Positions 2,960 through 25,084 of a stretch of 25,084 bases of DNA are shown here, piece after piece. The translations under genes were made by a program, and so were the position numbers. Position 1 is the first letter of the stretch. Each line of letters starts with the position of its first letter. The notes below the pieces were generated by a model. It searched no databases. It was not told the origin of the DNA and saw only the letters and a program-made list of their open reading frames with translations. The DNA is from a virus (Duplodnaviria > Heunggongvirae > Uroviricota > Caudoviricetes): the IMG/VR virus record IMGVR_UViG_2778261154_000008, one strand, 5' to 3'.

Positions 2960-3492
2960 ACGGGCGGTGATGTCTTCTCATTGTCGCCGTCCTTATGAAT
3001 GTGTTCGCTGAATGATTTACCCTTGATTCTGACATCTTCAGTAAATTCACAGGGACCGACGAATTTCATTTGTTTACCGATAATATTCAGCAATTCGTCG
3101 GCGGTGAGATTTACCGTTTTCCCTGAAACGTCTACCTGTTCTCCTGTGATTTCAATGACGCCGTTTTCCTTCAGGGTGATGTGTGATTTGCCGTCCCGGT
3201 GATACACCCTGACATCGCCGGGGGACAGTCCTTTCGGGCGACATCGCTTGTCTTCCACCGCGATGGCAACCAGCCCGTCACGCCGTCCGCCAACGGCCAG
3301 CACAATGGCTTCAGAACCTTCCGGCGGAACGGACGTAAACCCGTAGTTCTGGAAGCGTTCCACGTCGTCATCGGTGGCATCTGCCAGCGTCTGAATTTGC
3401 AGGTTCTGCCGTGCCAGACCGTCAGACACCAGGCGGACAACAGCGCGGTCAACCATCAGTCGCAGGCGGCGGGCAATTGCGTTTAATCCCAT
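2956..3492 (-). CDS. Baseplate assembly protein V / central spike (Mu gp45-like)
   Basis: 178-aa ORF downstream of the Mu P-like gene; size and position typical of the gpV spike. Confidence 0.65.
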   Translation of the reverse strand: MGLNAIARRLRLMVDRAVVRLVSDGLARQNLQIQTLADATDDDVERFQNYGFTSVPPEGSEAIVLAVGGRRDGLVAIAVEDKRCRPKGLSPGDVRVYHRDGKSHITLKENGVIEITGEQVDVSGKTVNLTADELLNIIGKQMKFVGPCEFTEDVRIKGKSFSEHIHKDGDNEKTSPPV

Positions 3493-4553: not shown

Positions 4554-5827
4554 CAGTCGGTGATCTCCACAGGTTGCGTCGGCAGGATGAATGACGGATG
4601 ACGCAGGCGGTTACGCTGCACGATTTCATCCCGTCGGCGTGTGTCACCATGCTCGCGCCATGCCAGCAATGCGGCAGAGGTGGTTGTGGTCAGCGTCACC
4701 TGCCGGGTTTCCGGCAGACGGGCGGCACGCTCGCGGGCATCCGTAATCACGGCCTGCCGTAAATCGCGCAGCGTTCGCCACAATGTCCGCTGGTTGTTTT
4801 CCACCGCCGCCACCGCCTGCTCATGCAGTTCAGCCGCCAGCGTGTCACCGGCAGATAACGCCGCATCACGGGTATCGAACGTCATCGAGGCCACGGCACT
4901 GGCCTGTCCCAGCAGGGCTCCCAGCACAACCACCTGGCGGAAGTCGTCAATGTTCTTTTGCAGGCTGTCAGATACCGGCTGATAATCCGGTGACAGCCCG
5001 ATGGCAAAGCCGGGGTTGCCGTCTGCCACGCTGCCGGGCTTCACGGTGATATCTTCCGGCAGTGCGCCGGTGGCAATCTGCCTGGCACGTTCTCCGGCCC
5101 ACTGGTTGCGTAATGTCGTGTAAACCGCCAGTGCTTCGGGTGGTTCCGTCACAAGGCCCGCAATATCTTCCACCCGTGCTGACAGCTCACTGACCAGACG
5201 CCCCGGTGTGGCAATGAGGGTTCCGGCCATCGCCTTAAAATGCTTCAGCCTGTCCATCCACTGATTCAGTGCTGCCGGTAACGTGGGCAGGTTAGCCACA
5301 AGGTTTTCCATATCGGCCAGAAAACTGTCGGCCATGTCACCCAGCCCGTCGAGTGCGCCGAACCAGTCGCCATCGTCAATGGCGGCTTTCACCGCATCAA
5401 TGCCTGTCAGCACTTCCTGCTGCGTGTTATCCGCCGCAGACGGGAACAGGCGCTCGCCTGCCTCAAACACTTCAAAGGTGACATACGCAATGCCGTCTTC
5501 CTCCGTGCTGAGGCGATGGGTGACCTTGCCAACCTGTACGGTCTGTATCCCGAACCACGGGTGGACAAGCTCGCCGGGGCCGGGGGTATTGAGCGCATCT
5601 AAAAGGGCGTTTAAATCATCCCGGAAGTTTTTACCTGGCAGCTTTGCGTTAATCTGCTGTTGCCCCGGAACGGCCCCGTTATCATCCGTCCAGGCGGTTT
5701 CACGCCGGGGATAAGCACGGGGAATGGCACGACGACCACCGGTGCCCTCCGTATCCACCAGAAAGAAGGGGACGCCACGAAACGAGGCGTCGCGCAGCCC
5801 GTCCCATTTACCGTTGCTCGTTGTCAT
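4553..5827 (-). CDS. DNA circulation protein (Mu N / gp43-like)
   Basis: 424-aa ORF directly downstream of the tape measure gene; N-terminus (MTTSNGKWDGLRDASFRGVPFF...) resembles the DNA-circulation N-terminal domain as I recall it. Confidence 0.7.
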   Translation of the reverse strand: MTTSNGKWDGLRDASFRGVPFFLVDTEGTGGRRAIPRAYPRRETAWTDDNGAVPGQQQINAKLPGKNFRDDLNALLDALNTPGPGELVHPWFGIQTVQVGKVTHRLSTEEDGIAYVTFEVFEAGERLFPSAADNTQQEVLTGIDAVKAAIDDGDWFGALDGLGDMADSFLADMENLVANLPTLPAALNQWMDRLKHFKAMAGTLIATPGRLVSELSARVEDIAGLVTEPPEALAVYTTLRNQWAGERARQIATGALPEDITVKPGSVADGNPGFAIGLSPDYQPVSDSLQKNIDDFRQVVVLGALLGQASAVASMTFDTRDAALSAGDTLAAELHEQAVAAVENNQRTLWRTLRDLRQAVITDARERAARLPETRQVTLTTTTSAALLAWREHGDTRRRDEIVQRNRLRHPSFILPTQPVEITD

Positions 5828-7620
5828 TAACCCTGCTCCACGCTGGTGACGCCAGCCTGCGCACTGAGTCTGACGCCGGGTTGATCCACTCTGACGCTTT
5901 TCACGCGGGCATCACCTTCCACCACCACACGGATTTCCCCCTGCAATTGTTGCGGAAGGAAAGGATAATTCTGAGTGGGTTGCATACCAGCCCACGGTCG
6001 CGGGTCGGCAATATTCTTTTTTTCCAGAGAGTTAAACCAGTTCCTGATATCCGTCCATACCGTCGGGCGGTTGTTGTTTTCCTGAACCCGTGCGATTAAC
6101 GCATCTGCTTCCTCTTTGTTCTTAGGGAAAGCAGAGAGCACCATGTCAAGGAGATTAAATCCTGATGCAGTTTGTGGTGTAACCAGCGCTGGCGTCTTTG
6201 GCCCACGTGGGTTGCGGGAGTTACGGGGATTGCGCGATGAATCCGGCGCATCCGGCAGACCGCCGGTATTACCCTTCATCCCGCCACTGCCCATATTGAC
6301 CACATAAACCGGCATCACACCGGAGCCGAAAACATCCGTAATGCTGCCGGGTATCCCTTTGCCTTTCCCTTTGGGATTCATGATGTCGTGGATGGTTTTA
6401 CCGAACTGATACGTCTTTCTGATGGCGATAATGCCGCCCAGCGCGATCGCCATATATTTACCGACCTGCAACCAGTTCTGGGCAGTGTTCTGGTCCACGC
6501 TGTTGAGCGCATCCGCCAGGTCCTGAACGGGCTTTGCCAGTTGCCCTTCAGCAAAACGTTGCCATTCGTTATTCAGTGACTGTATTGCGGCATTAAAGCC
6601 TTCGGCATTGGTCTGTGCGGCCTTTTGCGTGGAACCCAGCTCAATCGTGCCGTAAATCATTTGTTCCATCAGTTGCCGGTTTTCAGGGTTAAGCAGCGCC
6701 TTAATCCCCTGCATTCCGGTCAGATCAAACACATCCTGAAGTTTCAGCGGGTCGTATTTGGCCCGTTTAAGGATTTCCATCATCAGCTCATAGGGCTTTT
6801 TGATGTCTTTTGTGCCTTTGACAAAAACGTCAATGCCGTTTTTTTTCAGGAACTCGATGTTCTTTTTGTCCGACAGGGAAGCATACATGGCCTGAATACT
6901 GGTTACCGTCTCATCAATGCTGCCTTTGTTTTTGGCGAACACCTGAGCAAATGCCCCCATCTGGGCAATGGCTTCCGGTCCCTGATCCTGAATGATGGAA
7001 AACAGTTTCGGGGCAGCGCGGGCAACATCGGCAACGCTTACAGACCCCACTGCGAACTGCGAATACAGCCTGTCCATCATGTTATTGACCGCATCAGCAC
7101 CCCGGACGTTTTTTTCCCAGAACTGGGCCATCAGCCCGGCTGCAACCTGTCCGTCAACACCGAACGCCTGCATCATCAACCCCATGTTGCGGAGGTTGTC
7201 CACCACATACTGATAATCACCGGTTTTCCCCAGAAGTTCGCTGGCCCCCTGACCAAGCGCAGAAGCATCAATACGAATATCTTTCTGGTTCGATACATCC
7301 CTGATTTTGTCGTGAAGCGTCTTTACCTGTTCAGTGGTTAACTGGGCATCCGTACCCATCCGGCGCATCTGCGCATCAAAATCGGCAACCTGTTTGATGG
7401 TAAGACTACTGCCAAGCCCGGCTATCATTGCCGTGTAGCGGTTACCAAGCGTATCAAGGCCGCGTCCTGCGGCCTCCGTTGTGGCTTTGACAAGGCGCAT
7501 GGCCTTCTGGTTGTTCCGGGCGAACTGCGACATGTTTGCGCCGTACTGCCGGGCTTTGGCGGTCAGGTTCCCGGCAAGGTTGATCATGATTTCCGTGCTG
7601 AGACGGTTACCTGTTGCCAT
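5827..7620 (-). CDS. Tail tape measure protein
   Basis: 597-aa ORF, largely helical-looking with a Gly/Pro/Asn-rich C-terminal tract; sits between the chaperone and DNA circulation genes. Confidence 0.8.
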   Translation of the reverse strand: MATGNRLSTEIMINLAGNLTAKARQYGANMSQFARNNQKAMRLVKATTEAAGRGLDTLGNRYTAMIAGLGSSLTIKQVADFDAQMRRMGTDAQLTTEQVKTLHDKIRDVSNQKDIRIDASALGQGASELLGKTGDYQYVVDNLRNMGLMMQAFGVDGQVAAGLMAQFWEKNVRGADAVNNMMDRLYSQFAVGSVSVADVARAAPKLFSIIQDQGPEAIAQMGAFAQVFAKNKGSIDETVTSIQAMYASLSDKKNIEFLKKNGIDVFVKGTKDIKKPYELMMEILKRAKYDPLKLQDVFDLTGMQGIKALLNPENRQLMEQMIYGTIELGSTQKAAQTNAEGFNAAIQSLNNEWQRFAEGQLAKPVQDLADALNSVDQNTAQNWLQVGKYMAIALGGIIAIRKTYQFGKTIHDIMNPKGKGKGIPGSITDVFGSGVMPVYVVNMGSGGMKGNTGGLPDAPDSSRNPRNSRNPRGPKTPALVTPQTASGFNLLDMVLSAFPKNKEEADALIARVQENNNRPTVWTDIRNWFNSLEKKNIADPRPWAGMQPTQNYPFLPQQLQGEIRVVVEGDARVKSVRVDQPGVRLSAQAGVTSVEQG

Positions 7621-7816
7621 GCTGTTTCTCCAGTTGCTTTATCAGGCGGAACAGCTGCCGCAGGGGCAGCTGTTCCAGGTACTGAATGCTGAATCGCGAA
7701 GACAGGTTAACCAGCAGGTTCATCAGTGCCGACGCCAGCGGCATCAGTTCGCCCCCGCGTTGCCACCTCCTCAAGCATGTCATCCAGCACAGCCGCTTTC
7801 GTGCTGATAAGCTCAA
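7607..7816 (-). CDS. Probable frameshift extension of the tail assembly chaperone (G/GT-like arrangement)
   Basis: Frame open from 7816 to 7607, overlapping the chaperone 3' end by 110 nt and the tape measure start by 14 nt. The listed start is TTG with no convincing RBS. This frame is +1 (equivalently -2) relative to the chaperone frame. Confidence 0.4.
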   Translation of the reverse strand: MSLSARKRLCWMTCLRRWQRGGELMPLASALMNLLVNLSSRFSIQYLEQLPLRQLFRLIKQLEKQHGNR

Positions 7817-8102
7817 GGTCTGCCGGGTGGAGCATTCGCAGCTGTTTCATGTCCAGCGGGCCGGGGATATTACCGATTGACGCAACCTGACGGCGCATCA
7901 TCTCCAGTCCCATCAGCACCTCAGAACAGTAGGCCACCGCCTTTCCGTTCCCGCCCATGACGACGCGTTCTGCGGCCAGTTGCGCATCAATCACATCACT
8001 GGCGGTCAGTTCGCGCAGTTTCACGGTTTTATGCAGGGTTTCATCTGCCGTGCCTTTGCCGGTCAGAAGCCCGTGTTTCAGTTCAAATTCCATTGCGGCC
8101 AT
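7707..8102 (-). CDS. Tail assembly chaperone (Mu gp41-like)
   Basis: 131-aa acidic ORF between tube and tape measure genes; its 3' end is overlapped by a second open frame (7607-7816). Confidence 0.55.
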   Translation of the reverse strand: MAAMEFELKHGLLTGKGTADETLHKTVKLRELTASDVIDAQLAAERVVMGGNGKAVAYCSEVLMGLEMMRRQVASIGNIPGPLDMKQLRMLHPADLELISTKAAVLDDMLEEVATRGRTDAAGVGTDEPAG

Positions 8103-8103
8103 G

Positions 8104-8460
8104 TCACACCTTCACGCATTTTTCACCGATAAAGTTGGCACTGATGGTGCCGGAATCCTCGTCCAGCTCTGCCGGGTTATCCGTGGCGGAACCCGTCATC
8201 ATGTAGTTCAGGCCGTTGTCGCCGTAGAACATCACCGTGACATCTTCCCAGCTGCTGATTTCAATCACGTCCATATCCGCTGCCGCCGCAATGGTTACCT
8301 TGATGGACGGCGAGGCCATCTTGCTGGAGATACCCCAGACCTTGCCGCCGCCCATATGCTGGGTGCGGCTGAAGCCGCCCGGATTCAGCGTGGATTTCCC
8401 CTCGGTTTTAATTTCGCGGCCATTCACGCGAATGGTCGCCATACCAAGAATTTTTGCCAT
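8104..8460 (-). CDS. Tail tube protein (Mu M-like)
   Basis: 118-aa ORF immediately downstream of the sheath gene. Confidence 0.75.
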   Translation of the reverse strand: MAKILGMATIRVNGREIKTEGKSTLNPGGFSRTQHMGGGKVWGISSKMASPSIKVTIAAAADMDVIEISSWEDVTVMFYGDNGLNYMMTGSATDNPAELDEDSGTISANFIGEKCVKV

Positions 8461-8469
8461 GTGGCCCCC

Positions 8470-9945
8470 TTAAAGCTTGAACTGAATCAGGCCTGCCAGC
8501 ACACGCAGCTGGTTCACCAGATTCGGGTGGCAGATAAAGTTCAGGCGGTTTTTATCACTGCTGTCACGTGTCACCTGAAGCGTGTCTTTGTAATCGCTGA
8601 AGTTCTCCACAAGGCCCGCCGGGAGAAGTTCGGTCTGGCAGATATCCAGCAGTTCTGCGGTGCACAGCTTCGGCGTCATCACCGGCTGCCCCGCATCCAG
8701 CGAGTCCAGCACGTCATCATCCGCCAGCTTGTGGCGCGGATAACGGTTCGTGAAACGGTTCTTGATGATGTAACGGATACGGCCCAGCGTGGCGGGTGAC
8801 TGCACATCCAGGTACGACACATCCGCATCACCGTACTGGTTAACCCGGTACATGGTGATTTCGCGCTCGATGCAGACGTTATCCCCGGCGTCCACCATGT
8901 GCGTGGCAATGCCGTCATGCAGCAGCAGATTACGCTCCGGCATATCCCAGCGAACATTACGCGCAGGCGGCAGAATGCCGGTCAGGACCAGCGTCTGAAG
9001 CGGTCGCGCCGGGTCAATGGCAAGGTGATACGCTGCCGTTGCGCCGTATGACGCGGCCCACATCCACGCCGGGTGCGGTGACAGGTTGGTGCCGATACAG
9101 CTAATCAGCCAGTCATTGCGGGTTTCACCAAACGTGCCGGTTTCCCCGTGTGTGCCACGAAACGCCGTCCACAGCTGCGCTTCCATCATTTTGAGCGGCC
9201 CCCAGCGGTTCAGCAGTTCATCACGCAGGGTGTTCAGGCTTTTCGTGTCGGTGAACGGGGCGATGATATCGGTAAACCACTCCGGGCCGATGGCCGCAAC
9301 GGCGTCTGCCATTTCCGGTGTCCCGGTGCCGCCGGTAAACGCGGTTGCGGTCACCTTCACACCTGCCGGGAAGGCTTCACCGGTGTGGTAGTTCAGGCGA
9401 ACGTCGGCACCGTTGCCGGTGACGCCGTGCCAGTTCACGGTCAGCTCCACGGTATCCGTGGCATCATCCTTCACCGCAGCGGCCACCTGCGTGGCAGGCT
9501 TTTTCGTCACCGCATCAGCAATGGCTTTTGCAATGTTTTCCTTCGTATCCCCGGCGCTCACGCTCACCTGAACGGACACACCGTTAATCAGCAGTGCCAC
9601 CGTTCCGGCTTCGGTCGCTGTACCCAGCACGGTCAGCGTGGCTTTTGCGGCAGCGCCTTCAGGAGCGGCAACCGGCATCGCCCAGGTTTCCGTGTACGTG
9701 TTGGCACGACGCAGCATTTTGAGCATTTCAGCCAGCATCGACCCTTTGCCATAAAGCTGGTCTGCCTGGCTGTCACTGGTGATGCGGGTCAGTGACAGGG
9801 CGTCTGCGCTGCCGGACGATACCGCATGGCCCATGACCAGAATTTTTCGGCTTTGCGCGGATGCACCCTCCAGCGCCTGTGAATTGTCGATATCGATCCA
9901 GACAAGCGGGACGCGGATATCATCAGGAATGGAACCCAGCGACAT
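8470..9945 (-). CDS. Contractile tail sheath protein (Mu L-like)
   Basis: 491-aa ORF with the size and composition of a sheath protein, followed by the tube gene. Confidence 0.85.
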   Translation of the reverse strand: MSLGSIPDDIRVPLVWIDIDNSQALEGASAQSRKILVMGHAVSSGSADALSLTRITSDSQADQLYGKGSMLAEMLKMLRRANTYTETWAMPVAAPEGAAAKATLTVLGTATEAGTVALLINGVSVQVSVSAGDTKENIAKAIADAVTKKPATQVAAAVKDDATDTVELTVNWHGVTGNGADVRLNYHTGEAFPAGVKVTATAFTGGTGTPEMADAVAAIGPEWFTDIIAPFTDTKSLNTLRDELLNRWGPLKMMEAQLWTAFRGTHGETGTFGETRNDWLISCIGTNLSPHPAWMWAASYGATAAYHLAIDPARPLQTLVLTGILPPARNVRWDMPERNLLLHDGIATHMVDAGDNVCIEREITMYRVNQYGDADVSYLDVQSPATLGRIRYIIKNRFTNRYPRHKLADDDVLDSLDAGQPVMTPKLCTAELLDICQTELLPAGLVENFSDYKDTLQVTRDSSDKNRLNFICHPNLVNQLRVLAGLIQFKL

Positions 9946-12993: not shown

Positions 12994-13950
12994 TTACTCC
13001 TGTTTCGGTTTAGCGGCGAGGAACTCTTCCCCGGTAATACCCATGCTGCGACACATCGCCAGTTCGGCATCGGTCAGTGTCTGCGCGGGTTTATCCTTGC
13101 CCTGGCTGGGCTTGTCGTTGTTAACCAGCGGCTGTGCACCTTTGGTGTACTCCGCAAACTGTTTGCGGCCTTCTTCCGTGCGGCAGGTGGCAAGGAACAT
13201 GTCACGGTTTGCCGGGGCGACTTTTCCGGCCCCGATGGCCGCATCCACAAGCGCCTCGGCTTCCTTCTCTTCCAGTTGCTGAAGGCGTTTTTCTGCGGTT
13301 TCGGCACGGTTCAGTGCCAGATTGTGGGTTTCCACCGGCACAAACTTCGTCAGGTCAGGTGTCTGTGCGCGGTTCAGCGCCACCTGTTCGTTCTCCTGAA
13401 GTTGTTTAATGGCGGCCACGGTATCGTCCACCGTGGCGGATTCAGCCAGCCCAAGCAGGCCGGTGATTTGCACAGGTACTGTCATCGGGTTTTTCTCCGT
13501 ATTCAGTGCAGGAAAATCCAGGTTAGGTTTGTTGGTCAGCCCGACGCTGGACAGGCGCGTCACCGCACCGTCTGCGTCATGGAAAAACGCCGGGCTGTAA
13601 TAGCGGTAGCGGCGCTCGCTCAGCATCCACCGGGCGGACTCACTCCAGACAACACGCCCTTCAATGGTGCCGCTGTCCGTCACCCGCAGTGCTTCCACCC
13701 AGCCATACGCCGGAGCCTCTTCACCCCGCGGGCCTTTAATTTCGGTGGCATGTTCAATGTCCACCGGAATGTTGATGTCGGACGAACGGGCAACCACCTC
13801 ATGTGGATTGCGGTTCATCCACGTCCGGCCATCGCGCCCGGTGAACTCACCCGCAGGAACGAGTTCAAGCCATTCCGGCAGTTGAGCGGGTGTCAGCTCA
13901 GGGATGGGTTCTGGCAGGGAAAAACACAGCGCCAGCAGTTCCGGTTGCAT
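12994..13950 (-). CDS. Head maturation protease / scaffold (Mu I / gp32-like)
   Basis: 318-aa ORF with a C-terminal helical Ala/Glu/Lys-rich scaffold-like region; first gene after the F-I intergenic gap. Confidence 0.8.
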   Translation of the reverse strand: MQPELLALCFSLPEPIPELTPAQLPEWLELVPAGEFTGRDGRTWMNRNPHEVVARSSDINIPVDIEHATEIKGPRGEEAPAYGWVEALRVTDSGTIEGRVVWSESARWMLSERRYRYYSPAFFHDADGAVTRLSSVGLTNKPNLDFPALNTEKNPMTVPVQITGLLGLAESATVDDTVAAIKQLQENEQVALNRAQTPDLTKFVPVETHNLALNRAETAEKRLQQLEEKEAEALVDAAIGAGKVAPANRDMFLATCRTEEGRKQFAEYTKGAQPLVNNDKPSQGKDKPAQTLTDAELAMCRSMGITGEEFLAAKPKQE

Positions 13951-13999
13951 GTCAGTCTCCGTCGTCTGGGGTTACCGACGGTCAGTATGCGGAAGGCAG

Positions 14000-14025
14000 A
14001 AAAAAAGCCGGATTTACCGGCTTCA
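14000..14025 (-). terminator. Exact second copy of the same 26-bp hairpin plus T-tract element, ~50 nt upstream of the protease/scaffold gene
   Basis: aaaaaaagccggatttaccggcttca is identical at 14000-14025 and 21712-21737; flanks differ. Position matches where Mu has its late promoter for gene I. Confidence 0.5.
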
Positions 14026-14043
14026 CTGAAAACGGGGAAATAC

Positions 14044-14066
14044 CCCCTTCAAAACCCCTTCAAAAA
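14044..14066. repeat. Tandem direct repeat CCCCTTCAAAA x2 (third, degenerate copy GCTTCAAAAAA at 14077-14087) in the F-I intergenic region
   Basis: Read directly from the sequence; minus-strand form TTTTGAAGGGG. The TGAAG core also occurs in both copies of the 26-bp element and in the endolysin-leader hairpin. Confidence 0.4.
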
Positions 14067-14113
14067 CGCCACAGACGCTTCAAAAAAGCCAGGGTGTACA
14101 TTCATGCCATCAG

Positions 14114-14140
14114 AATAAAAAACGCGTTTCTGATGCGTTT
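14114..14140 (-). terminator. Candidate intrinsic terminator just downstream of the head morphogenesis gene
   Basis: Minus-strand RNA AAACGC-AUCAGAAAC-GCGUUU-UUUAUU, starting ~25 nt after the stop at 14165; the stem is short and AU-rich, so the call is weak. Confidence 0.3.
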
Positions 14141-14164
14141 CAGGGGTATTTACGGCGGGGTGGG

Positions 14165-14929
14165 TTATTCACTGTTAAAACGGGCCTGTCTGGCCGCCAG
14201 CTGGCGCGCCAGCTCCTGCTCACGGTTTATACCGGGATTGTAGTTCCAGCCCGGATCAATCCCTTCCGGCACATCTTCCTCTTCGCCCGTGCGTTTGTTC
14301 ACCCAGCGGACAGTTCTGATTTCCGGCGCTTCGGTGTGAATGGTGCCCTGTGCCGCCAGTTGCGCATACTCACCACGGCTGACCTGACGGATGGTGCATT
14401 TGCAGCCCCAGCCGTTAGGGGCAAAATGCGTCTGCCAGAACGGATGATCTACCGGCAGACACAGACGCGCCCATTTCACATGCTCCACCCGGTGCTCACG
14501 GGATGGCCCCAGCTCGTACATCAGATACGGCATGGCCTGCTTTGTCCGCTGAATGCGTTCCCACTGGCCCGCCGCGCGGGCGGTGCGCATGTTGGTATCA
14601 AAAATCGTGCGGAGGCGGCGGTCGCTGCCCAGTTGCACGGTGCGGGTTTCACCCGTCAGCGGATCATCCATCTCCTGTACGCCCCACCATCCGCGTTTTA
14701 TCAGCAACGGTTGCAGCATCTCCCGGAACTCGCTGAACGTCTGCCCGCTTTGCAGGGCGTCTTCCACAAGGGCTTTCACATCCGACAACAAATCCAGTTG
14801 CAGCATTCTGGCCACGGGGAAGCTGTACCGGTACTCTTCCCGCCACACATCCCGGTAATCAAAACCGGGACGCAGCTTCTTCGCCTTCAGCCACGCCAGC
14901 GCCTCTTTCGGGATGAGGGTTTCACGCAT
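14165..14929 (-). CDS. Head morphogenesis protein (Mu F / gp30-like)
   Basis: ORF listed as 14165..14986. I prefer the internal ATG at 14929, which has GGGAGA 9 nt upstream and overlaps the portal stop by 8 nt. Confidence 0.75.
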   Translation of the reverse strand: MRETLIPKEALAWLKAKKLRPGFDYRDVWREEYRYSFPVARMLQLDLLSDVKALVEDALQSGQTFSEFREMLQPLLIKRGWWGVQEMDDPLTGETRTVQLGSDRRLRTIFDTNMRTARAAGQWERIQRTKQAMPYLMYELGPSREHRVEHVKWARLCLPVDHPFWQTHFAPNGWGCKCTIRQVSRGEYAQLAAQGTIHTEAPEIRTVRWVNKRTGEEEDVPEGIDPGWNYNPGINREQELARQLAARQARFNSE

Positions 14930-19042: not shown

Positions 19043-19336
19043 TCAGTCCCTCGCACGGGGTTTTTTAACGCCCGGCACACCGGACAGGCCGTTTGCCACA
19101 TCCTCGCCGCTGCCGGTGATTTCAGCCACGTAACAGCCGCCCACATCAGACAGACGAACCAGCCCCTGCTCGCGCAGCCATGCAAGCTGGGTGCGCACCA
19201 CATCACGGGATACCTTATGACCGTAGGCCTGAAGGCAGGTCTGCAACACGGATTCATTCGCGCTGTCGCCACAGTCCAGCAGGGAACGCAGCAACACCAG
19301 ACGACGGTCTTCAGTGAGGATCTCTTTCATCGCCAT
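19043..19336 (-). CDS. Hypothetical protein, possible winged-helix fold
   Basis: 97-aa ORF; start overlaps the upstream stop by 1 nt (TAATG). Confidence 0.45.
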   Translation of the reverse strand: MAMKEILTEDRRLVLLRSLLDCGDSANESVLQTCLQAYGHKVSRDVVRTQLAWLREQGLVRLSDVGGCYVAEITGSGEDVANGLSGVPGVKKPRARD

Positions 19337-19641
19337 TAATTTTTTTCCTTTAATTCGTTCTCTAATAACAAATCGCTGATGCGGGATACCTGGCGGATGG
19401 ATGGCCCCAGCTCTTTGATTTCACCCCGCAGGTTGCTGATATCCAGTTGCAGGCGGTGAAATTCATTGCGGTCGGGTAGCTGATTCACCAGGCCTTCCAT
19501 CACCGACACGCGGGAACGCAGCGAATCAAACTCTTCGCGTTTGACGTAAGTCTTCGCCAGAATCAGCTGAATCAGGTTTATTGCTGTCATCAACAGCGCC
19601 CATAAAACAGGCCAGTTGGCCCGGATCACTTCCCAGGACAC
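19336..19641 (-). CDS. Membrane-anchored coiled-coil protein (Mu gp25-like position; possible lysis/spanin-like role)
   Basis: 101-aa ORF with an N-terminal hydrophobic segment (WPVLWALLMTAINLIQLILA) followed by a heptad-like region. Confidence 0.45.
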   Translation of the reverse strand: MSWEVIRANWPVLWALLMTAINLIQLILAKTYVKREEFDSLRSRVSVMEGLVNQLPDRNEFHRLQLDISNLRGEIKELGPSIRQVSRISDLLLENELKEKN

Positions 19642-19853
19642 GTCTTCCTCCTGTGTTCCCGCGCCTGCTGGCAGTCAATACAGGTCACCACATCCGGCAG
19701 CACCGCAAGGCGCTGTGCCGGAATAACGTTCCCGCAGTCATTGCAGAAGCCCCGACTGTGGGGTGCTTCTTTTATCCGCATCAGCCAGGCGTTAACGACG
19801 TCCTGACGTTCGTTTAAAACCACTTCACTGATGCGGTCGGTTTCATCGGTCAT
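19626..19853 (-). CDS. TraR/DksA-family C4 zinc-finger protein
   Basis: 75-aa ORF with CxxC...CxxC (FCNDCGNVIP...VTCIDCQQ), typical of phage TraR-like proteins; ATGA coupling to the upstream gene. Confidence 0.65.
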   Translation of the reverse strand: MTDETDRISEVVLNERQDVVNAWLMRIKEAPHSRGFCNDCGNVIPAQRLAVLPDVVTCIDCQQAREHRRKTCPGK

Positions 19854-20458: not shown

Positions 20459-20856
20459 GAATCCCCCTTATGAAAACGGCGCTGATGTTTATAAAGTGCC
20501 GCACAAAAGATACCGCCCAGCCAGAACGCCAGCTGATAAGGCTCCTTCAGATAAAGAAGGCCGAATGTCAGCATGAAAAAACCAACGGCCCAGACCACCC
20601 ATGACCACACGACAATTCGAAGGGAGGCGGCCCGGAAACGCCTTTTGGGTTGCAGGCGATAAGGTACGTTGCCCAGCTGGAAACTGTGAATCAGGCAGAG
20701 TGTCGCGCCGTATGCCAGCACCATGACCGCAAACGCCTGCCATCCGGCAAAACAGCTCGCCAGAAAAAGGACTGCCGACAGCCCCAGAAACGACCACTGG
20801 CACAACATAAAGCGGGAGTAAATAACGCGAACAAAAAGACTATTCATTCTGTGCAT
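20446..20856 (-). CDS. Polytopic membrane protein, ~4 predicted TM segments (holin or superinfection-exclusion candidate)
   Basis: Start taken at the internal ATG 20856 (MHRMNSLF...) with AAGGA upstream; four hydrophobic stretches by eye. The longer listed form (to 21027) would overlap the adjacent 75-aa ORF. Confidence 0.45.
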   Translation of the reverse strand: MHRMNSLFVRVIYSRFMLCQWSFLGLSAVLFLASCFAGWQAFAVMVLAYGATLCLIHSFQLGNVPYRLQPKRRFRAASLRIVVWSWVVWAVGFFMLTFGLLYLKEPYQLAFWLGGIFCAALYKHQRRFHKGDSWTR

Positions 20857-21067
20857 TGAGTTTTTCCTTGTACTTCTGGCACTGCCAGAAAATGTCCCGT
20901 GTATCCACGGTGTTCCAGCCACGCATGTAGTGGCTGGCGTGTGTGCCGTCATGACCGGTATAGTCCAGCGGTTTCGGGGGCGGACCTCCGGCCATACGAT
21001 GTAAAACCTCCTGACGCAGGCGGTCACGCCGCCCGGCTCTCAGCGAGGCATCCCAGCCTTTGCCCAT
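20840..21067 (-). CDS. Hypothetical 75-aa protein downstream of the endolysin gene
   Basis: Start 2 nt after the endolysin stop with GGGGA upstream; hydrophilic, no TM segment; no family recognised. Confidence 0.3.
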   Translation of the reverse strand: MGKGWDASLRAGRRDRLRQEVLHRMAGGPPPKPLDYTGHDGTHASHYMRGWNTVDTRDIFWQCQKYKEKLNAQNE

Positions 21068-21068
21068 A

Positions 21069-21656
21069 TCATCCCCGCGTGACGGACGACACGTTGTCGA
21101 TAATTTCCAGACAGGCGTCGGTCACTTTCTCCATGCGGTTAAACCAGCCGTTCAGGTATTTGCCCTGGGCAGGTTTGGATTTGATGATGTCGGCATAAAA
21201 GCGGGAACGACGGACAATGCAGCGGGTCAGCAACCAGTCCGGGGTGGACAGGCTCACTGCCTTACGGGTACGCGGACCGATGATGCCGTCAGCATCCACA
21301 TCAGCGGCTTCCTGCAAAATCCTGATAGCTTTTTTAACGCCATGCTGAACCGCCGCATCGAACACAAACATCGCCACGCCATCAGGCCACTGGTCACATC
21401 CGGCAGGCAGCCAGTAATCGCGCCAGTAAATCTGCGCGACCTGTTCGCGGGTTAAATCCCTGATGCGGGTATCCGGTTTACCGTCGCCGCTGACATCGGT
21501 TTTGCCGTCAATCACACCGTCGCGGCGGTCAGAAATGCCGTATCTGGTTTCGCCGCCACGGTCAGTGGGGTCATTGACATAGACGCCTTCGATATCGGGA
21601 CGCAGAATAAAATTCAGCGCATACTCAAAGGCCGGGGAGAATTTTTGATTTTCCAT
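21069..21656 (-). CDS. Endolysin, GH108-type muramidase with C-terminal peptidoglycan-binding domain
   Basis: 195-aa ORF; N-terminal FEYALNF...EGVYVNDPTDRGGETRYGIS matches the GH108 signature as I recall it; C-terminal DGIIGPRTRKAV resembles a PG-binding domain. No N-terminal hydrophobic/SAR segment. AGGTG RBS. Confidence 0.8.
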   Translation of the reverse strand: MENQKFSPAFEYALNFILRPDIEGVYVNDPTDRGGETRYGISDRRDGVIDGKTDVSGDGKPDTRIRDLTREQVAQIYWRDYWLPAGCDQWPDGVAMFVFDAAVQHGVKKAIRILQEAADVDADGIIGPRTRKAVSLSTPDWLLTRCIVRRSRFYADIIKSKPAQGKYLNGWFNRMEKVTDACLEIIDNVSSVTRG

Positions 21657-21667
21657 AAAAGCACCTG

Positions 21668-21696
21668 TGAAGCAGATTTAAACGTGGTCTGCTTCA
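21668..21696 (-). promoter_or_regulatory. 9-bp perfect inverted repeat in the endolysin leader, immediately upstream of its RBS
   Basis: tgaagcaga-N11-tctgcttca; on the mRNA the hairpin ends 12 nt before the ATG, next to AGGUG. Shares the TGAAGC motif with the 26-bp element. Confidence 0.4.
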
Positions 21697-21711
21697 TGGT
21701 GCCGGAGGCAT

Positions 21712-21737
21712 AAAAAAAGCCGGATTTACCGGCTTCA
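21712..21737 (-). terminator. Hairpin plus T-tract between the Mor/C gene and the lysis operon: intrinsic terminator and/or late-promoter activator site (copy 2 of a 26-bp repeat)
   Basis: Minus-strand RNA reads UGAAGCCGG-UAAAU-CCGGCUU-UUUUUUA: 7-bp GC-rich stem, 5-nt loop, U7. Begins 4 nt after the Mor/C stop and lies ~55 nt upstream of the endolysin ATG. Confidence 0.55.
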
Positions 21738-21741
21738 TTGA

Positions 21742-22191
21742 TTAAGGACGTCGTGGCGGACGACGAACGGGGTGAGGCAGGTTCGGGGAGTGGTAAAACA
21801 AATCCGGCTGGTATTTATTACACTCCAGACGCCGCATCCGCTTGATGGCCTTGTAGACGGTTTTATACGTCACCCCGTAACGCTGAACCAGTTCAGGAAT
21901 ATTATGGCCGTTAAAATCACGCCAGATACGCATATCCCGGACAAGATTCTCCAGAATATTCCCCCTCGGAACATAAACCTGCATCCCGCCGATATAGCGA
22001 CAAATCGCCACAACCAGCTCAAGGGAATGGGCAGGGTCTGCGCCAATCCGGGCCAGCTCTTTACGCAGCAGTGCGTTCAGTTCAGAAAGTAACGCCGGAT
22101 AAGCCGTGTTTTCCTGGTAATCGTTAAGGTATTCCAGAACGCTGTCGTCCCGGAAGTCTTCGAATAAATCCTGCTCTTTCATCTGTTTCAT
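21742..22191 (-). CDS. Mor/C-family transcriptional activator of middle/late genes
   Basis: 149-aa ORF; the segment DPAHSLELVVAICRYIGGMQVYVPRG...YGVTYKTVYKAIKRMRR closely resembles the Mu Mor/C family as I recall it; ATGA overlap with gemA; sits directly upstream of the lysis operon. Confidence 0.75.
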   Translation of the reverse strand: MKQMKEQDLFEDFRDDSVLEYLNDYQENTAYPALLSELNALLRKELARIGADPAHSLELVVAICRYIGGMQVYVPRGNILENLVRDMRIWRDFNGHNIPELVQRYGVTYKTVYKAIKRMRRLECNKYQPDLFYHSPNLPHPVRRPPRRP

Positions 22192-22739
22192 ACAGCAATT
22201 CTCCCGCTGTTTCGTGCGCGGGCATATGCACTGGTCAGTGCATCATAGCCGCGCAGCTTCCGCCCGGTTTCGCTCACAGGTAAAGGCACACCATGTCGGG
22301 CAAAGGCTTCCCGGATGCAGCGCATATGCCACTGTTTGAGCGTTTCGAGCACAACATGCAACGATTCCCCGTGACACCAGGCCAGCGTGGAAACACCCTG
22401 ACCGCCATTACGTCTGACCGTCAGGCGTTCAACGTATTTGTCCAGCGCAGCGTCGCTGATATCGGAGACGAAACCATCAAGGAACATCTGCTGCCAGATT
22501 TTATAAATCTTCTCGCGCGGTGTGACATGCCCCTTAAAGCGACGGCGGGGATGTTTTTTCTGCTTCTTAAAACCGCGCTCTTTCATGGCATCGAGCACAC
22601 GTTCCAGTTGTGCAACGGACAGCTCGCGGCAACTGGTTTTGCCCGTGTGCTGCACCAGAAAGGCGCGGTAAGTGTCATCGTCGAGTTGTAGATCACGACG
22701 GGCGACATGAATTAATTTAATCAGGGATGTGCGATTCAT
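22188..22739 (-). CDS. gemA: GemA-like regulatory protein (Mu gp16, DUF1018-type)
   Basis: Start taken at ATG 22739 (MNRTSLIKLIHVARRDLQLDDDTYRAF...) with GGAGG 8 nt upstream, rather than the longer listed form from 22793. Confidence 0.7.
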   Translation of the reverse strand: MNRTSLIKLIHVARRDLQLDDDTYRAFLVQHTGKTSCRELSVAQLERVLDAMKERGFKKQKKHPRRRFKGHVTPREKIYKIWQQMFLDGFVSDISDAALDKYVERLTVRRNGGQGVSTLAWCHGESLHVVLETLKQWHMRCIREAFARHGVPLPVSETGRKLRGYDALTSAYARARNSGRIAV

Positions 22740-22812: not shown

Positions 22813-23079
22813 ATGAAAAACAGTGAACAGCCTTATGATGTTGCAGGGTATGTCATTGCCTCAAGGTTGCTGATACTCCTTGTCAGAAAGGGGCTAATTA
22901 CCGCAGAAGAAGGCAAAACGATCCTCGAAGCCGCAGCAAGCGGAGCGGCAGAGGCTCCGGCATTGAGAACAACGAATAATCCCATCCTGCAAATATCACA
23001 GCTAATCACTGATACCATCAGTTTGTTAGACCAAGATTCTGATGAATATCAAAAGCCTCAGCCATCTGAGCATCCGTAA
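22813..23079 (+). CDS. Hypothetical 88-aa protein on the opposite strand to the phage operons (candidate moron or antisense-regulated gene)
   Basis: ATG 22813 preceded by AGAGGAAA. Lies in an otherwise non-coding 278-bp minus-strand gap in lower-GC DNA (hand count ~44%). Overlaps the 3' end of the convergent minus gene by 62 bp. One hydrophobic stretch (YVIASRLLILLV). Confidence 0.4.
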   Translation: MKNSEQPYDVAGYVIASRLLILLVRKGLITAEEGKTILEAAASGAAEAPALRTTNNPILQISQLITDTISLLDQDSDEYQKPQPSEHP

Positions 23080-24043: not shown

Positions 24044-24548
24044 TTATTCCTCCGTCAGTGCCACAAATTCAGAATGTTTAATGCGCTGGCATTCGGCAGG
24101 AACCGGTCCCTTAACCTCACCATCCAGCAGGCACACCTCAAACAAAATGCCGAATCCGTCACGGCTGTGGTGCATCGTCCAGACTGATTTGAGATCAAAC
24201 ATGTTGGGTACAACATCAACCCCGAGTTCATTACACAACCAGACCGGGAATGTGGGATATTTCCGGAGTTGCTCTTCATGTTCCTGAATAAGCGTCGCAT
24301 TGTTTCGGCCTTCCGGTGTTGTTATATCCGGTACAACGCCATAAAACTGAAATCCACCAATAAACAGTCCGTCTGATTTACCACGCCATAATTCCGGCGC
24401 TAATTGATTCATCCAGATACATTCAACCCGTTCATACCCTCTGTTACTGACAAGGGAAACACCGTCTGCGCCAAACGCACGCTGCAATGAGCAGATGATT
24501 TTGTCACGCTTAACAGAAACATCTTTCAGCCAGCGAATCGTATAACCG
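24044..24548 (-). pseudogene. Hypothetical early-region gene, probably 5'-truncated by the IS insertion
   Basis: The listed ORF runs to a GTG at 24574, but its first nine codons lie inside the IS3-family left end (which starts at 24549), so the native N-terminus appears to be missing. An internal Met at ~24412 could still give a shorter product. Confidence 0.45.
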
Positions 24549-24580
24549 TGAGGTAGCCTGAGTTTAACGGACACTCCTTC
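24549..24580. repeat. Left terminal inverted repeat of the IS3-family element (approximate extent)
   Basis: Begins with TG at 24549; the right end is outside the window, so the IR length cannot be confirmed. Confidence 0.45.
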
Positions 24581-24612
24581 CTGAAATAGAATGGCATCAG
24601 AAGGAGCTAATA

Positions 24613-24915
24613 ATGAGCAGAAAAACCCAACGTTACTCTAAAGAGTTCAAAGCCGAAGCTGTCAGAACGGTTCTTGAAAATCAACTTTCGATCAGTGAAG
24701 GCGCTTCCCGATTATCCCTTCCTGAAGGCACTTTAGGACAATGGGTTACCGCCGCCAGAAAAGGGCTCGGTACTCCTGGTTCCCGCACGGTGGCTGAACT
24801 GGAATCTGAAATTCTGCAACTGCGTAAGGCGTTAAATGAAGCTCGCCTTGAGCGAGATATATTAAAAAAAGCAACAGCGTATTTTGCACAGGAGTCGCTG
24901 AAAAATACGCGTTAA
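24613..24915 (+). CDS. IS3-family transposase OrfA (HTH / leucine-zipper subunit)
   Basis: 100-aa ORF MSRKTQRYSKEFKAEAVRTVLENQLSISEGASRLSLPEGTLGQWV... with a helix-turn-helix and a C-terminal heptad region typical of IS3 OrfA. Confidence 0.9.
   Translation: MSRKTQRYSKEFKAEAVRTVLENQLSISEGASRLSLPEGTLGQWVTAARKGLGTPGSRTVAELESEILQLRKALNEARLERDILKKATAYFAQESLKNTR
24864..24871 (+). promoter_or_regulatory. Candidate -1 programmed frameshift site of the IS (A7-G slippery run)
   Basis: AAAAAAAG sits in the orfA/orfB overlap (orfA codons TTA AAA AAA GCA); IS3-family elements classically shift on A6G-type motifs. Confidence 0.55.
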
Positions 24916-25084
24916 TCGAACAATGGCGACAACAATTTCCCATTGAAGCGATGTGTCAGGTATTTGGTGTATCCAGGAGCGGTTATTACAACTGGGTACA
25001 GCATGAACCCTCAGACAGAAAACAAAGTGATGAGCGGCTAAAACTGGAGATTAAGGTGGCACATATCCGCACTCGCGAAACATA
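24872..25084 (+). CDS. IS3-family transposase OrfB, N-terminal part (made as an OrfAB fusion by -1 frameshift); partial
   Basis: -1 frame relative to orfA, open to the window end; my translation reads LIEQWRQQFPIEAMCQVFGVSRSGYYNWVQHEPSDRKQSDERLKLEIKVAHIRTRET, typical of IS3 OrfB N-termini. Exact fusion point not determinable by eye. Confidence 0.75.

What the first reader, a model, noticed from the sequence alone, without database searches (positions are those of the whole stretch)
21742..22191. A single Mor/C-family activator between gemA and the lysis operon
In Mu, gemA is followed by mor, and a second homologous activator, C, lies further downstream before lys (established Mor-to-C-to-late cascade). 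Here only one Mor/C-family gene is present between gemA and the endolysin gene, immediately followed by the hairpin/T-tract element and the late operon. That suggests either a compressed two-tier cascade in which one factor activates late promoters directly, or a second activator elsewhere, possibly lost with the early region.
Basis: partly seen in the sequence, partly recalled or inferred. Interest (0 to 1): 0.4.

Follow-up and report, generated by a model that had tools for sequence, protein, structure and literature searches.

The report
Single Mor activator drives late genes
This Mu-like prophage has one Mor-type activator gene, and copies of Mu's known Mor-dependent promoter sit in front of its lysis and head genes, so one factor most likely switches late genes on directly; this is the usual layout in Mu relatives, and phage Mu's two-activator cascade is the exception.

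Summary
Window 21742-22191 (-) encodes a 149-aa Mor/C-family protein. It lies between gemA (22188-22739) and a GH108 endolysin gene (21069-21656).

No second paralogue exists in the window. None exists in a complete prophage that is 100% identical over the 6.5 kb compared (E. coli FDAARGOS_943). None lies within 10 kb of mor in ten related prophages, and none anywhere in one complete related phage genome.

The protein is a Mor orthologue: 61% identical to Mu Mor and 32% to Mu C.

The "hairpin/T-tract" after the gene is the homologue of Mu's middle promoter Pm. It combines a Mor box, an overlapping terminator and a -10 hexamer at the same spacing as in Mu.

An exact 26-nt copy lies upstream of the head protease gene (Mu gene I equivalent). 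A third, weaker box lies inside a baseplate gene.

The best model is therefore a two-tier cascade in which Mor activates late promoters directly. This rests on sequence comparison; nothing was tested experimentally.

The layout is not unusual. In the phage collection, only Mu and its near-identical relatives carry both Mor and C. A Salmonella prophage shows an intermediate layout.

In this window the prophage is cut by IS600 at about 24531, so this copy may be defective.

Verdict: real, now explained, and a new member of a known kind. Interest is low to moderate.

The parts
22188..22739 (-). gemA (Mu gp16 homologue), the gene before mor. Its stop overlaps the mor start codon.
   Evidence: Pfam GemA 6.9e-33. 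79% identical to Mu GemA over 182 aa. Annotated 'gp16 family protein' in the identical prophage.
21742..22191 (-). mor orthologue, the only Mor/C-family gene of the prophage (149 aa). It has a Mor-type recognition helix, the motif QPDLF at residues 128-132, and a lineage-specific Pro/Arg-rich tail.
21724..21739 (-). Mor box of the lysis-operon promoter, AATGAAGCCGGTAAAT. It corresponds to Mu Pm positions -51 to -36 (AGTAAAGCCGGTTAAT).
   Evidence: Alignment with Mu Pm. Pm numbering was anchored with Table 3 of PMC4390567. PWM score 30.2 bits. Conserved in 11 related (pro)phages.
21712..21736 (-). Hairpin GAAGCCGG-TAAAT-CCGGCTTT plus a T7 run. It looks like an intrinsic terminator for early transcripts and overlaps the Mor box, as the predicted terminator does at Mu Pm.
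   Evidence: The Mu annotation places a predicted terminator inside Pm.
21688..21701 (-). -10-like hexamer CACCAT (21696-21701) and the predicted transcription start (about 21688-21690) for the lysis operon.
   Evidence: The hexamer is at the same offset (32-37 nt from GCCGG) as TATCCT in Mu Pm, and as the CAnnAT hexamers in 10 of the 11 relatives (the eleventh, L007, has ATAAAT one base off). The start site is inferred from Mu, not measured.
21069..21656 (-). GH108 endolysin, the first gene of the Mor-box-driven operon.
   Evidence: Pfam Glyco_hydro_108 2e-23 and PG_binding_3 2.2e-17.
20840..21067 (-). Homologue of Mu gp18, which is the first gene of Mu's middle operon. Here it is the second gene after the Pm-like promoter.
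   Evidence: 67% identity over 69 aa to Mu gp18.
14012..14027 (-). Mor box of the head-operon promoter, AGTGAAGCCGGTAAAT. It lies within an exact 26-nt repeat of the first site.
   Evidence: PWM score 30.0 bits. A box is present in the F-I gap of all 10 relatives whose fetched DNA covers that gap.
13976..14024 (-). Hairpin plus T7 (14000-14024), -10-like CATACT (13984-13989) and predicted start (about 13976) upstream of the protease gene.
   Evidence: The core CCTTCCGCATACTGAC aligns with the Mu PI core CCTCCCGCAAACTGAC.
12994..13950 (-). Head maturation protease (Mu gene I equivalent), the first gene after the second Mor box.
   Evidence: Annotated 'phage protease' in the identical prophage. 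Syntenic in the relatives.
3080..3125 (-). Candidate third Mor-dependent promoter inside the baseplate V gene: box CAGGGAAAACGGTAAATC (3108-3125) and TATTAT (3080-3085) with a 22-nt spacing.
   Evidence: PWM score 22.0 bits; in 50 shuffles the mean maximum was 10.0 and the top score 16.6. A box of 18.9 bits lies at the same gene position in Klebsiella phage Kp4866-3. Sequence checked. The site is inside a coding region, so protein constraints may explain its conservation.
24531..25084 (+). IS600 (IS3 family). It cuts the 5' end of the DUF5420 gene and separates mor from the upstream early region in this copy.
   Evidence: The intact gene order is seen in L001.

Best explanation
The gene is the orthologue of Mu Mor and the only Mor/C-family activator of this Mu-like prophage. 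In an intact copy it would be made at the end of the early operon, right after gemA. It would then bind a Pm-type box, consensus [CAG]A[AG][TG]GAA[GA][CG]CGGT[AT]AAT. That box replaces the -35 region of at least two promoters. One lies 85 bp downstream of mor and drives the operon that runs from the GH108 endolysin and the gp18-like gene through the terminase and portal genes to the F-like head-morphogenesis gene. The other lies upstream of the head protease gene and drives head genes and probably tail genes. A third box inside the baseplate V gene may boost baseplate and tail-fibre expression. At the first two sites the box is embedded in a hairpin/T-tract that should also terminate transcripts coming from upstream. 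Each late operon would then depend on Mor rather than on read-through. The result is a two-tier (early then late) programme. It lacks Mu's middle tier, in which Mor turns on C and C turns on the late promoters. Shown here: the homology of the protein and of the promoters, the absence of a paralogue, and conservation across genera. Inferred: DNA binding, activation, start sites and termination.
For: (1) Orthology. The protein is 61% identical to Mu Mor and 32% to Mu C; Mor and C are 37% identical to each other. PDB hits: Mor 1rr7 at 3.8e-51, C at 2.1e-14. The recognition helix VTYKTVYKAIKRMRR is nearly identical to Mor's VTFNTVYKAIRRMRR and unlike C's LSQPQIYQIIARQRK. An NJ tree puts it in one clade with Mu Mor, with C on a long branch.
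(2) No paralogue, with Mu as a positive control.
(3) The 3' flank aligns with Mu Pm, with 26 of 28 invariant core positions and a -10 hexamer at the same offset. Mu Pm is experimentally shown to be Mor-dependent, with the box at -51 to -36 (PMC4390567, PMC4287176).
(4) An exact 26-nt second copy lies upstream of the protease gene. The 15-nt core matches exactly only at these two places in 25 kb, and both face the gene strand.
(5) In 11 related (pro)phages from six other genera (Mor 66-71% identical), a box sits just upstream of the GH108 gene. A box also sits in the F-I gap in all 10 whose DNA reaches it. In 7 of those 10 the hairpin's 3' arm and T-tract have decayed while the box and -10 are kept. 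That points to selection on the activator site rather than on the terminator.
(6) The Mu PI core and the window's protease-promoter core are homologous, with a Mor box where Mu has a C box.
(7) The Mu gp18 homologue lies in the same operon downstream of the endolysin gene. A Salmonella prophage carrying both Mor and C has the GH108 gene in its Pm-driven middle operon.
(8) The third box scores 22 bits against a shuffle maximum of 16.6.
Against: There is no experimental evidence for binding, activation or start sites in this phage. The -10 hexamer of the lysis promoter is weak (CACCAT, 3 of 6 matches). No Mor box was found upstream of com-mom in the intact relative, so at least one Mu late-operon equivalent is unexplained. 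The third box lies in a coding region, where protein constraints could account for its conservation. The PWM was built partly from the window's own two sites. In this window the early operon is interrupted by IS600, so Mor may not be expressed from this copy.
Confidence: 0.8

Rival explanations
1. A second Mor/C paralogue (a C equivalent) exists elsewhere in the prophage, or was lost with the IS-truncated early region, so the cascade is still three-tier.
For: The window is cut by IS600 at about 24531 and does not show the early region or the com-mom end.
Against: The complete prophage in FDAARGOS_943 (100% identical over the 6.5 kb compared) and the complete phage Kp4866-3 each have a single hit. 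This holds by tblastn at E<=50 and by unfiltered HMM search, while the Mu control gives two. All ten related loci have one hit within 10 kb of mor. No C-type box replaces the Mor boxes at the lysis and protease promoters.
Confidence: 0.03
2. The hairpin/T-tract elements are only intrinsic terminators between operons. Late genes are switched on by another factor encoded in the lysis operon (the TraR/DksA-type zinc-finger protein at 19626-19853 or the gp26-like winged-helix protein at 19043-19336), or by read-through or antitermination.
For: Both copies score as terminators. A TraR/DksA-like protein is encoded downstream, and the gene at 19043-19336 is 61% identical to Mu gp26, which the Mu record annotates as a winged-helix protein. 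No Mor box was found at com-mom.
Against: Conservation extends 5' of the hairpin over exactly the bases of the Mu Mor box. It persists in seven relatives in which the stem and T-tract have decayed. The spacing to a -10 hexamer is fixed. The same element in Mu is an experimentally defined Mor-dependent promoter (PMC4390567).
Confidence: 0.1
3. Evolutionary rival: this lineage once had the Mu-type Mor-to-C cascade and secondarily lost C and the C boxes, rather than keeping an ancestral single-activator state.
For: Mu Mor and the window protein are close (61%), and C is a deep branch, so C could predate their split. A Salmonella prophage combines the GH108 gene with C.
Against: Every non-Mu-type record with a Mor/C hit in the phage collection has one copy. 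No C homologue falls between 39% and 98.6% identity there. Secondary loss would require three or four promoters to be rewritten back to Mor boxes.
Confidence: 0.2

Closest known systems
Bacteriophage Mu Mor (middle operon regulator; PDB 1rr7, 9l0y) and its promoter Pm
   Same: 61% identity. Same position after gemA, with overlapping stop and start codons. Same recognition helix and the same linker motif GG..Y.P.G. The target element downstream of the gene is homologous: box, overlapping terminator hairpin with T7, and -10 spacing.
   Different: In Mu, Pm is the only Mor target and drives gp18-gp19-gp20-C. Here the box occurs two or three times and sits in front of lysis and head genes (and possibly baseplate genes), and there is no C. 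The window protein has QPDLF near its C-terminus plus a 17-aa Pro/Arg-rich tail; Mu Mor ends in QPSLL.
[quoted passage not shown]
   Same: Same family and fold. The presumed role is the same: direct activation of lysis and morphogenesis operons from a site centred near -43.5. The protease promoter core is homologous to Mu PI. The C-terminal QPDLF motif is identical to the C clamp-binding motif (PMC12867686).
   Different: Only 32% identity. The recognition helix differs. The boxes here are Pm-type (GAAGCCGGTAAAT), not the C-type TTAT-N5-6-ATAA.
Single Mor/C 'late regulator' of other transposable phages (BcepMu, KS10, phiE255, Vibrio martha, Klebsiella Kp4866-3, Pseudomonas Mu-like phages)
   Same: One Mor-family gene next to gemA (immediately after it, where the order was examined), followed by late genes (PMC2628397, PMC8705779, PMC9936078). 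Kp4866-3 shares the whole layout and the boxes.
   Different: Those proteins are mostly 30-35% identical to the window protein. I found no description of their promoter boxes in the papers searched.
Salmonella enterica subsp. diarizonae Mu-type prophage (GCA_007773785.1, locus L018)
   Same: gemA, mor, Pm box, GH108 endolysin (71% identical to the window's) and gp18, in the same order as in the window.
   Different: It then carries C (81% identical to Mu C), a C-box promoter and a Mu-type lysozyme gene. It is therefore a three-tier phage in which the GH108 gene belongs to the middle operon.

Membership tests
[quoted passage not shown] | Full-length match to the Mor family profile | tested here: met
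   E 4.3e-30, profile positions 3-107 of 107, 104 bits against a cut-off of 24.9. PHROG 532 at 8.5e-41.
[quoted passage not shown] | Small protein (about 100-150 aa) with an acidic N-terminal half, a basic C-terminal half with an HTH, and the invariant linker residues G, G, Y, P, G (PMC2582627) | tested here: met
   149 aa. The motif IGGMQVYVPRG aligns with Mor GGGQVYIPRG and C GGRQFYIPCG. HTH-type Pfam hits cover residues 94-121.
[quoted passage not shown] | Dimeric or tetrameric binding to a dyad box centred at -43.5 and recruitment of sigma-70 RNA polymerase | not testable with these tools
   Only the presence of a homologous box at the right spacing could be shown.
Mor orthologue group (as opposed to C) | Closer in sequence to Mu Mor than to Mu C, including the recognition helix | tested here: met
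   61% against 32% identity. PDB E-values 3.8e-51 against 2.1e-14. Alignment and tree.
Mor orthologue group (as opposed to C) | Last gene of the early operon, immediately after gemA and overlapping it | tested here: met
   gemA ends at 22188 and mor starts at 22191. This is the same arrangement as Mu 8781-8784.
Mor orthologue group (as opposed to C) | Pm-type box AGTAAAGCCGGTTAAT directly downstream of the gene | tested here: met
   AATGAAGCCGGTAAAT at 21724-21739.
Mu-type three-tier cascade (Mor, then C, then late promoters) | A second paralogue, C, encoded in a Mor-dependent middle operon | tested here: not met
   No second hit in the window, the complete identical prophage or the relatives. 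The Mu control gives two.
Mu-type three-tier cascade (Mor, then C, then late promoters) | C-type boxes (TTAT-N5-6-ATAA followed by CCCC) at the lysis, I, P and mom promoters | tested here: not met
   The lysis and protease promoters carry Mor boxes. The alignment with Mu PI shows the box swapped.
Pm-type activator-dependent promoter | No -35 hexamer, a -10 hexamer about 22 nt after the box, and a terminator hairpin overlapping the box | tested here: met
   CACCAT and CATACT lie at offset 32-37, as TATCCT does in Mu. The sigma-70 scan finds no canonical promoter there. Hairpins are shown.
Pm-type activator-dependent promoter | Transcription that depends on Mor in vivo or in vitro | not testable with these tools
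   This needs reporter or transcription assays.

The most novel reading that the evidence does not exclude
This prophage group preserves the ancestral two-tier programme of enterobacterial Mu-like phages. Mu's three-tier cascade would have arisen by inserting a C / C-box / lysozyme cassette into the Pm-driven operon and rewriting the Mor boxes at the protease and tail promoters into C boxes. The Salmonella diarizonae prophage would be a surviving intermediate. In addition, the single Mor here keeps the C-type QPDLF clamp-binding motif. One protein could therefore combine Mor's DNA specificity with C's replication-coupled late activation.
Probability: 0.45. Interest if true: 0.45.

Novelty: new member of a known kind. 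Interest (0 to 1): 0.3.

Why it matters
The finding removes an apparent anomaly. A lone Mor gene next to the lysis genes is the default design of Mu-like phages, not a sign of a missing gene.

It also gives concrete, testable promoter predictions for a widespread group of enterobacterial Mu-like prophages: two strong boxes and one candidate box, each with predicted -10 and start sites.

It offers a natural comparison set for asking how a regulatory tier is added to a phage cascade. The set runs from single-activator phages, through the Salmonella intermediate, to Mu.

It could also help test whether clamp coupling, recently shown for Mu C, applies to single Mor-type late activators.

Tried and rejected
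- A second paralogue was searched for by tblastn at E<=50 and by an unfiltered HMM search of six-frame translations. The targets were the window, the complete identical prophage, PSS-15 and Kp4866-3. None was found.
- I first read the GCCGG-N5-CCGGC hairpin itself as the Mor dyad. Anchoring the Pm numbering with Table 3 of PMC4390567 showed that the published box (-51 to -36) is AGTAAAGCCGGTTAAT. It overlaps only the 5' arm of the hairpin.
- The original Pm mutagenesis paper (PMC145667) is not held.
- A near-match to the hairpin at window 590-604 lies inside the tail-fibre gene. It has no T-tract and no 5' box bases, so I judged it to be chance.
- No Mor box was found upstream of com in the intact relative. 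Only a TATCCT hexamer and a half-site are present, with the wrong spacer.
- No Mor box was found at the position equivalent to Mu PP, inside the 3' part of gene N.
- The Rfam gathering search of the whole window gave no hit.
- A megablast of the prophage-IS600 junction found no complete E. coli genome with that junction. The source strain, and the fate of the early region beyond the IS, remain unknown.
- The search for homologous proteins returned only close relatives (61% identity or more), so a deep family tree that could place the origin of C was not built.
- Pfam scans of the small lysis-operon ORFs revealed no further regulator.

Full report
**What is in the window**

All relevant genes are on the minus strand. 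They form a Mu-like late region that runs from a truncated early region down to baseplate and tail-fibre genes.

- ORF 21742-22191 (-) encodes 149 aa. It matches Pfam Mor (PF08765) over the whole profile at E 4.3e-30 and PHROG 532 'late transcriptional activator' at 8.5e-41.
- The gene before it is gemA (22188-22739). It is 79% identical to Mu GemA, and its stop overlaps the mor start.
- The gene after it (21069-21656) is a GH108 endolysin with a PG_binding_3 domain.
- An IS600 copy starts at about 24531 and cuts the 5' end of the DUF5420 gene. The upstream early region is therefore not visible in this copy.

**Is there a second Mor/C gene?**

No. The evidence is as follows.

- A prophage that is 100% identical over the 6.5 kb compared is complete in E. 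coli FDAARGOS_943. It runs from the repressor, ner, A, B and gam genes to com and a mom-like gene.
- tblastn with Mu Mor, Mu C and the window protein at E<=50 gives exactly one significant hit in the window. It also gives one in that complete prophage and one in the fetched part (baseplate genes to repressor) of a 94%-identical prophage in E. coli PSS-15.
- An HMM built from the family (Mor clade plus C) and run without filters on six-frame translations gives the same result. It also gives one hit in the complete Klebsiella phage Kp4866-3. The Mu control gives two, Mor at 2e-62 and C at 3e-43.

**Which clade does the protein belong to?**

It is a Mor orthologue.

- It is 61% identical to Mu Mor and 32% to Mu C. 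Mor and C are 37% identical to each other.
- Against solved structures it hits Mor (1rr7, 9l0y) at 3.8e-51 and C (9l0x) at 2.1e-14.
- Its recognition helix, VTYKTVYKAIKRMRR, is almost the same as Mor's VTFNTVYKAIRRMRR and unlike C's LSQPQIYQIIARQRK.
- The invariant linker residues of the family are present (PMC2582627).
- In an NJ tree it falls with Mu Mor and about 90 enterobacterial relatives in one clade, with C on a long branch.

**The hairpin/T-tract is a Pm homologue**

I anchored Mu Pm numbering with Table 3 of PMC4390567, in which positions -57 to -52 read GTAAAC. This places +1 at Mu 9224 and the published Mor box (-51 to -36) at AGTAAAGCCGGTTAAT.

The box overlaps the 5' arm of a hairpin, GCCGGTTAATCCGGC, followed by T7. 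The Mu record also annotates this hairpin as a predicted terminator.

The window sequence after mor reads AATGAAGCCGGTAAATCCGGCTTTTTTTATGCC. It aligns with Mu Pm without gaps over the box, hairpin and T-tract. A -10-like hexamer, CACCAT, sits at the same offset as TATCCT in Mu.

The hairpin folds at -12.6 kcal/mol (z = -4.0) and scores as a terminator.

**The element is repeated in front of late genes**

- The 15-nt core has only two exact matches in the window. The second is at 14007-14021 (-).
- The exact repeat is 26 nt long, and similarity continues through the -10 region: ATGCCTCCGGCACCAT against CTGCCTTCCGCATACT.
- The second copy lies in the 214-bp gap between the F-like head gene and the protease gene. 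That is where Mu has its C-dependent promoter PI.
- The two promoter cores are homologous: CCTTCCGCATACTGAC here and CCTCCCGCAAACTGAC in Mu. The window has a Mor box where Mu has a C box.
- A position weight matrix built from 18 boxes finds a third site at 3108-3125 (-). It scores 22.0 bits, whereas 50 shuffles gave a mean maximum of 10.0 and a top score of 16.6. TATTAT follows it 22 nt downstream, inside the baseplate V gene.
- The complete phage Kp4866-3 has its third-best hit (18.9 bits, followed by CATTAT) at the same place in the same gene. Because this site is coding, I treat it as a candidate only.

**Conservation in other genera**

One scan of genome contigs returned ten prophages whose Mor is 66-71% identical to the window protein. 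They come from Pluralibacter, Raoultella, Klebsiella, Serratia, Kluyvera and Brenneria.

- All ten, plus Kp4866-3, have one Mor/C hit within 10 kb of mor.
- All share the gene order gemA, mor, (sometimes a small extra ORF), box, GH108, gp18-like, and so on through terminase, portal and F, then a box, then protease. One locus (L015) ends before the F-I gap.
- Ten of the 11 lysis-side boxes are followed by a CAnnAT hexamer at a fixed offset; the eleventh (L007) has ATAAAT one base off.
- In 7 of the 10 protease-side copies the hairpin's 3' arm and T-tract have decayed. The box [CAG]A[AG][TG]GAA[GA][CG]CGGT[AT]AAT and the xAxACT hexamer are kept.

This pattern argues that the activator site, not the terminator, is the selected feature.

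**Relation to Mu's middle operon**

- Mu gp18, the first gene after Pm, has a 67%-identical homologue in the window at 20840-21067. That gene lies just downstream of the endolysin gene.
- A Salmonella diarizonae prophage (L018) has Mor (81% identical to Mu Mor) and a Pm box. These are followed by GH108 (71% identical to the window's), gp18 and a small membrane protein. Then come C (81% identical to Mu C), a C-box promoter and a Mu-type lysozyme gene.
- The window's 'lysis operon' is therefore the counterpart of Mu's middle operon fused to the late lysis and packaging genes, without C.

**How common is the layout?**

- In the phage collection, 54 records match Mu C. Only Mu, D108, SfMu, Mu_3F6, PhiR68_1 and the Yersinia vB_YpM phages have two places, and their C proteins are at least 98.6% identical to Mu C.
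- All other records have one place. No C homologue lies between 39% and 98.6% identity.
- The literature treats 'late regulator Mor/C' as a single core gene of transposable phages (PMC8705779, PMC9239132). Published gene tables such as that of KS10 show gemA and mor followed directly by structural genes (PMC2628397).

A single activator is thus the norm. I did not find the promoter-box analysis above in the papers searched.

**Mechanism proposed**

Early transcription reaches mor. Mor binds the boxes and recruits sigma-70 RNA polymerase to promoters that lack a -35 element, as shown for Mu Pm (PMC4390567, PMC4287176, bioRxiv 10.1101/2025.05.02.651988). The embedded terminators keep each late operon dependent on Mor.

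The protein also carries QPDLF at residues 128-132. This is the motif through which Mu C binds the sliding clamp (PMC12867686). Mu Mor ends in QPSLL instead. This hints at replication-coupled late activation, but the motif varies among the orthologues, so I treat it as a lead.

Every step beyond sequence homology is inferred.

**Open points**

- No Mor box precedes com-mom in the intact relative.
- The -10 hexamer of the lysis promoter is weak.
- This copy of the prophage is interrupted by IS600 and may be silent.
- The direction of evolution (C gained by Mu, or C lost here) is not settled.

**Verdict**

The feature is real and now explained. It is an ordinary design for Mu-like phages, with some value for specialists as a set of testable promoter predictions and as an evolutionary comparison.

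Noticed in passing
window 24531-25084: An IS600 (IS3-family) copy abuts the prophage and removes the first codons of the DUF5420 gene (24044-24592 in intact relatives). No complete E. coli genome in the collection has this junction, so the source may be Shigella or an unsampled strain. It is unknown whether the early region survives beyond the IS.
   Followed up: partly
window 14030-14165 (-): The gap between the F-like gene and the protease gene carries three direct repeats of TTTTGAAG plus a small hairpin. It aligns with Mu's G-I gap, which holds the strong gyrase site, and the repeats are conserved as TT[AG]AACG in the relatives. It is probably the central gyrase site of this phage group.
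   Followed up: partly
window 21664-21690 (-): A perfect 8-bp inverted repeat, GAAGCAGA-N11-TCTGCTTC, spans the predicted start site of the lysis operon (-13.7 kcal/mol as RNA, z = -3.5). Several relatives have a different stem sequence at the same place; the Serratia and Brenneria relatives have none. Its function is unknown: it could be a 5' stem-loop or an operator.
   Followed up: partly
window 13955-13982 (-): The 5' leader of the protease gene also contains an inverted repeat, CCGTCG...CGACGG. In the relatives it appears as CTGTCCGTC...GACGGACAG.
   Followed up: no
window 21742-21795 (-), residues 133-149 of the Mor protein: A Pro/Arg-rich C-terminal tail, YHSPNLPHPVRRPPRRP, follows QPDLF. 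It is conserved in the E. coli and Salmonella lineage (P0001-P0011) and absent from Mu Mor, from C and from the other orthologues.
   Followed up: partly
L018 (Salmonella enterica subsp. diarizonae, GCA_007773785.1) 5453-8400: A Mu-type prophage with both Mor and C carries two endolysin genes. GH108 lies in the Pm-driven middle operon, and a Mu-type lysozyme gene lies behind a C-box promoter.
   Followed up: partly
L004 9084-9210 (-), upstream of com in E. coli FDAARGOS_943: A GATC-containing palindrome, GACGATCGATAGCATCATATCGATCGTC, precedes a TATCCT hexamer upstream of com. It recalls the Dam/OxyR control region of Mu Pmom. No Mor box is present.
   Followed up: no
window 22813-23079 (+): An 88-aa ORF lies on the opposite strand between gemA and the gp14-like gene. 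It is annotated as hypothetical in the relatives and has only a weak SHOCT-like Pfam hit. It may be a moron.
   Followed up: no
L005, L007-L016, between mor and the lysis-side box: Most relatives have 350-550 bp inserted between mor and the Pm-like box. In Kp4866-3 the insert appears, from reading the DNA, to encode a small hydrophobic protein. The window phage has no such insert.
   Followed up: no
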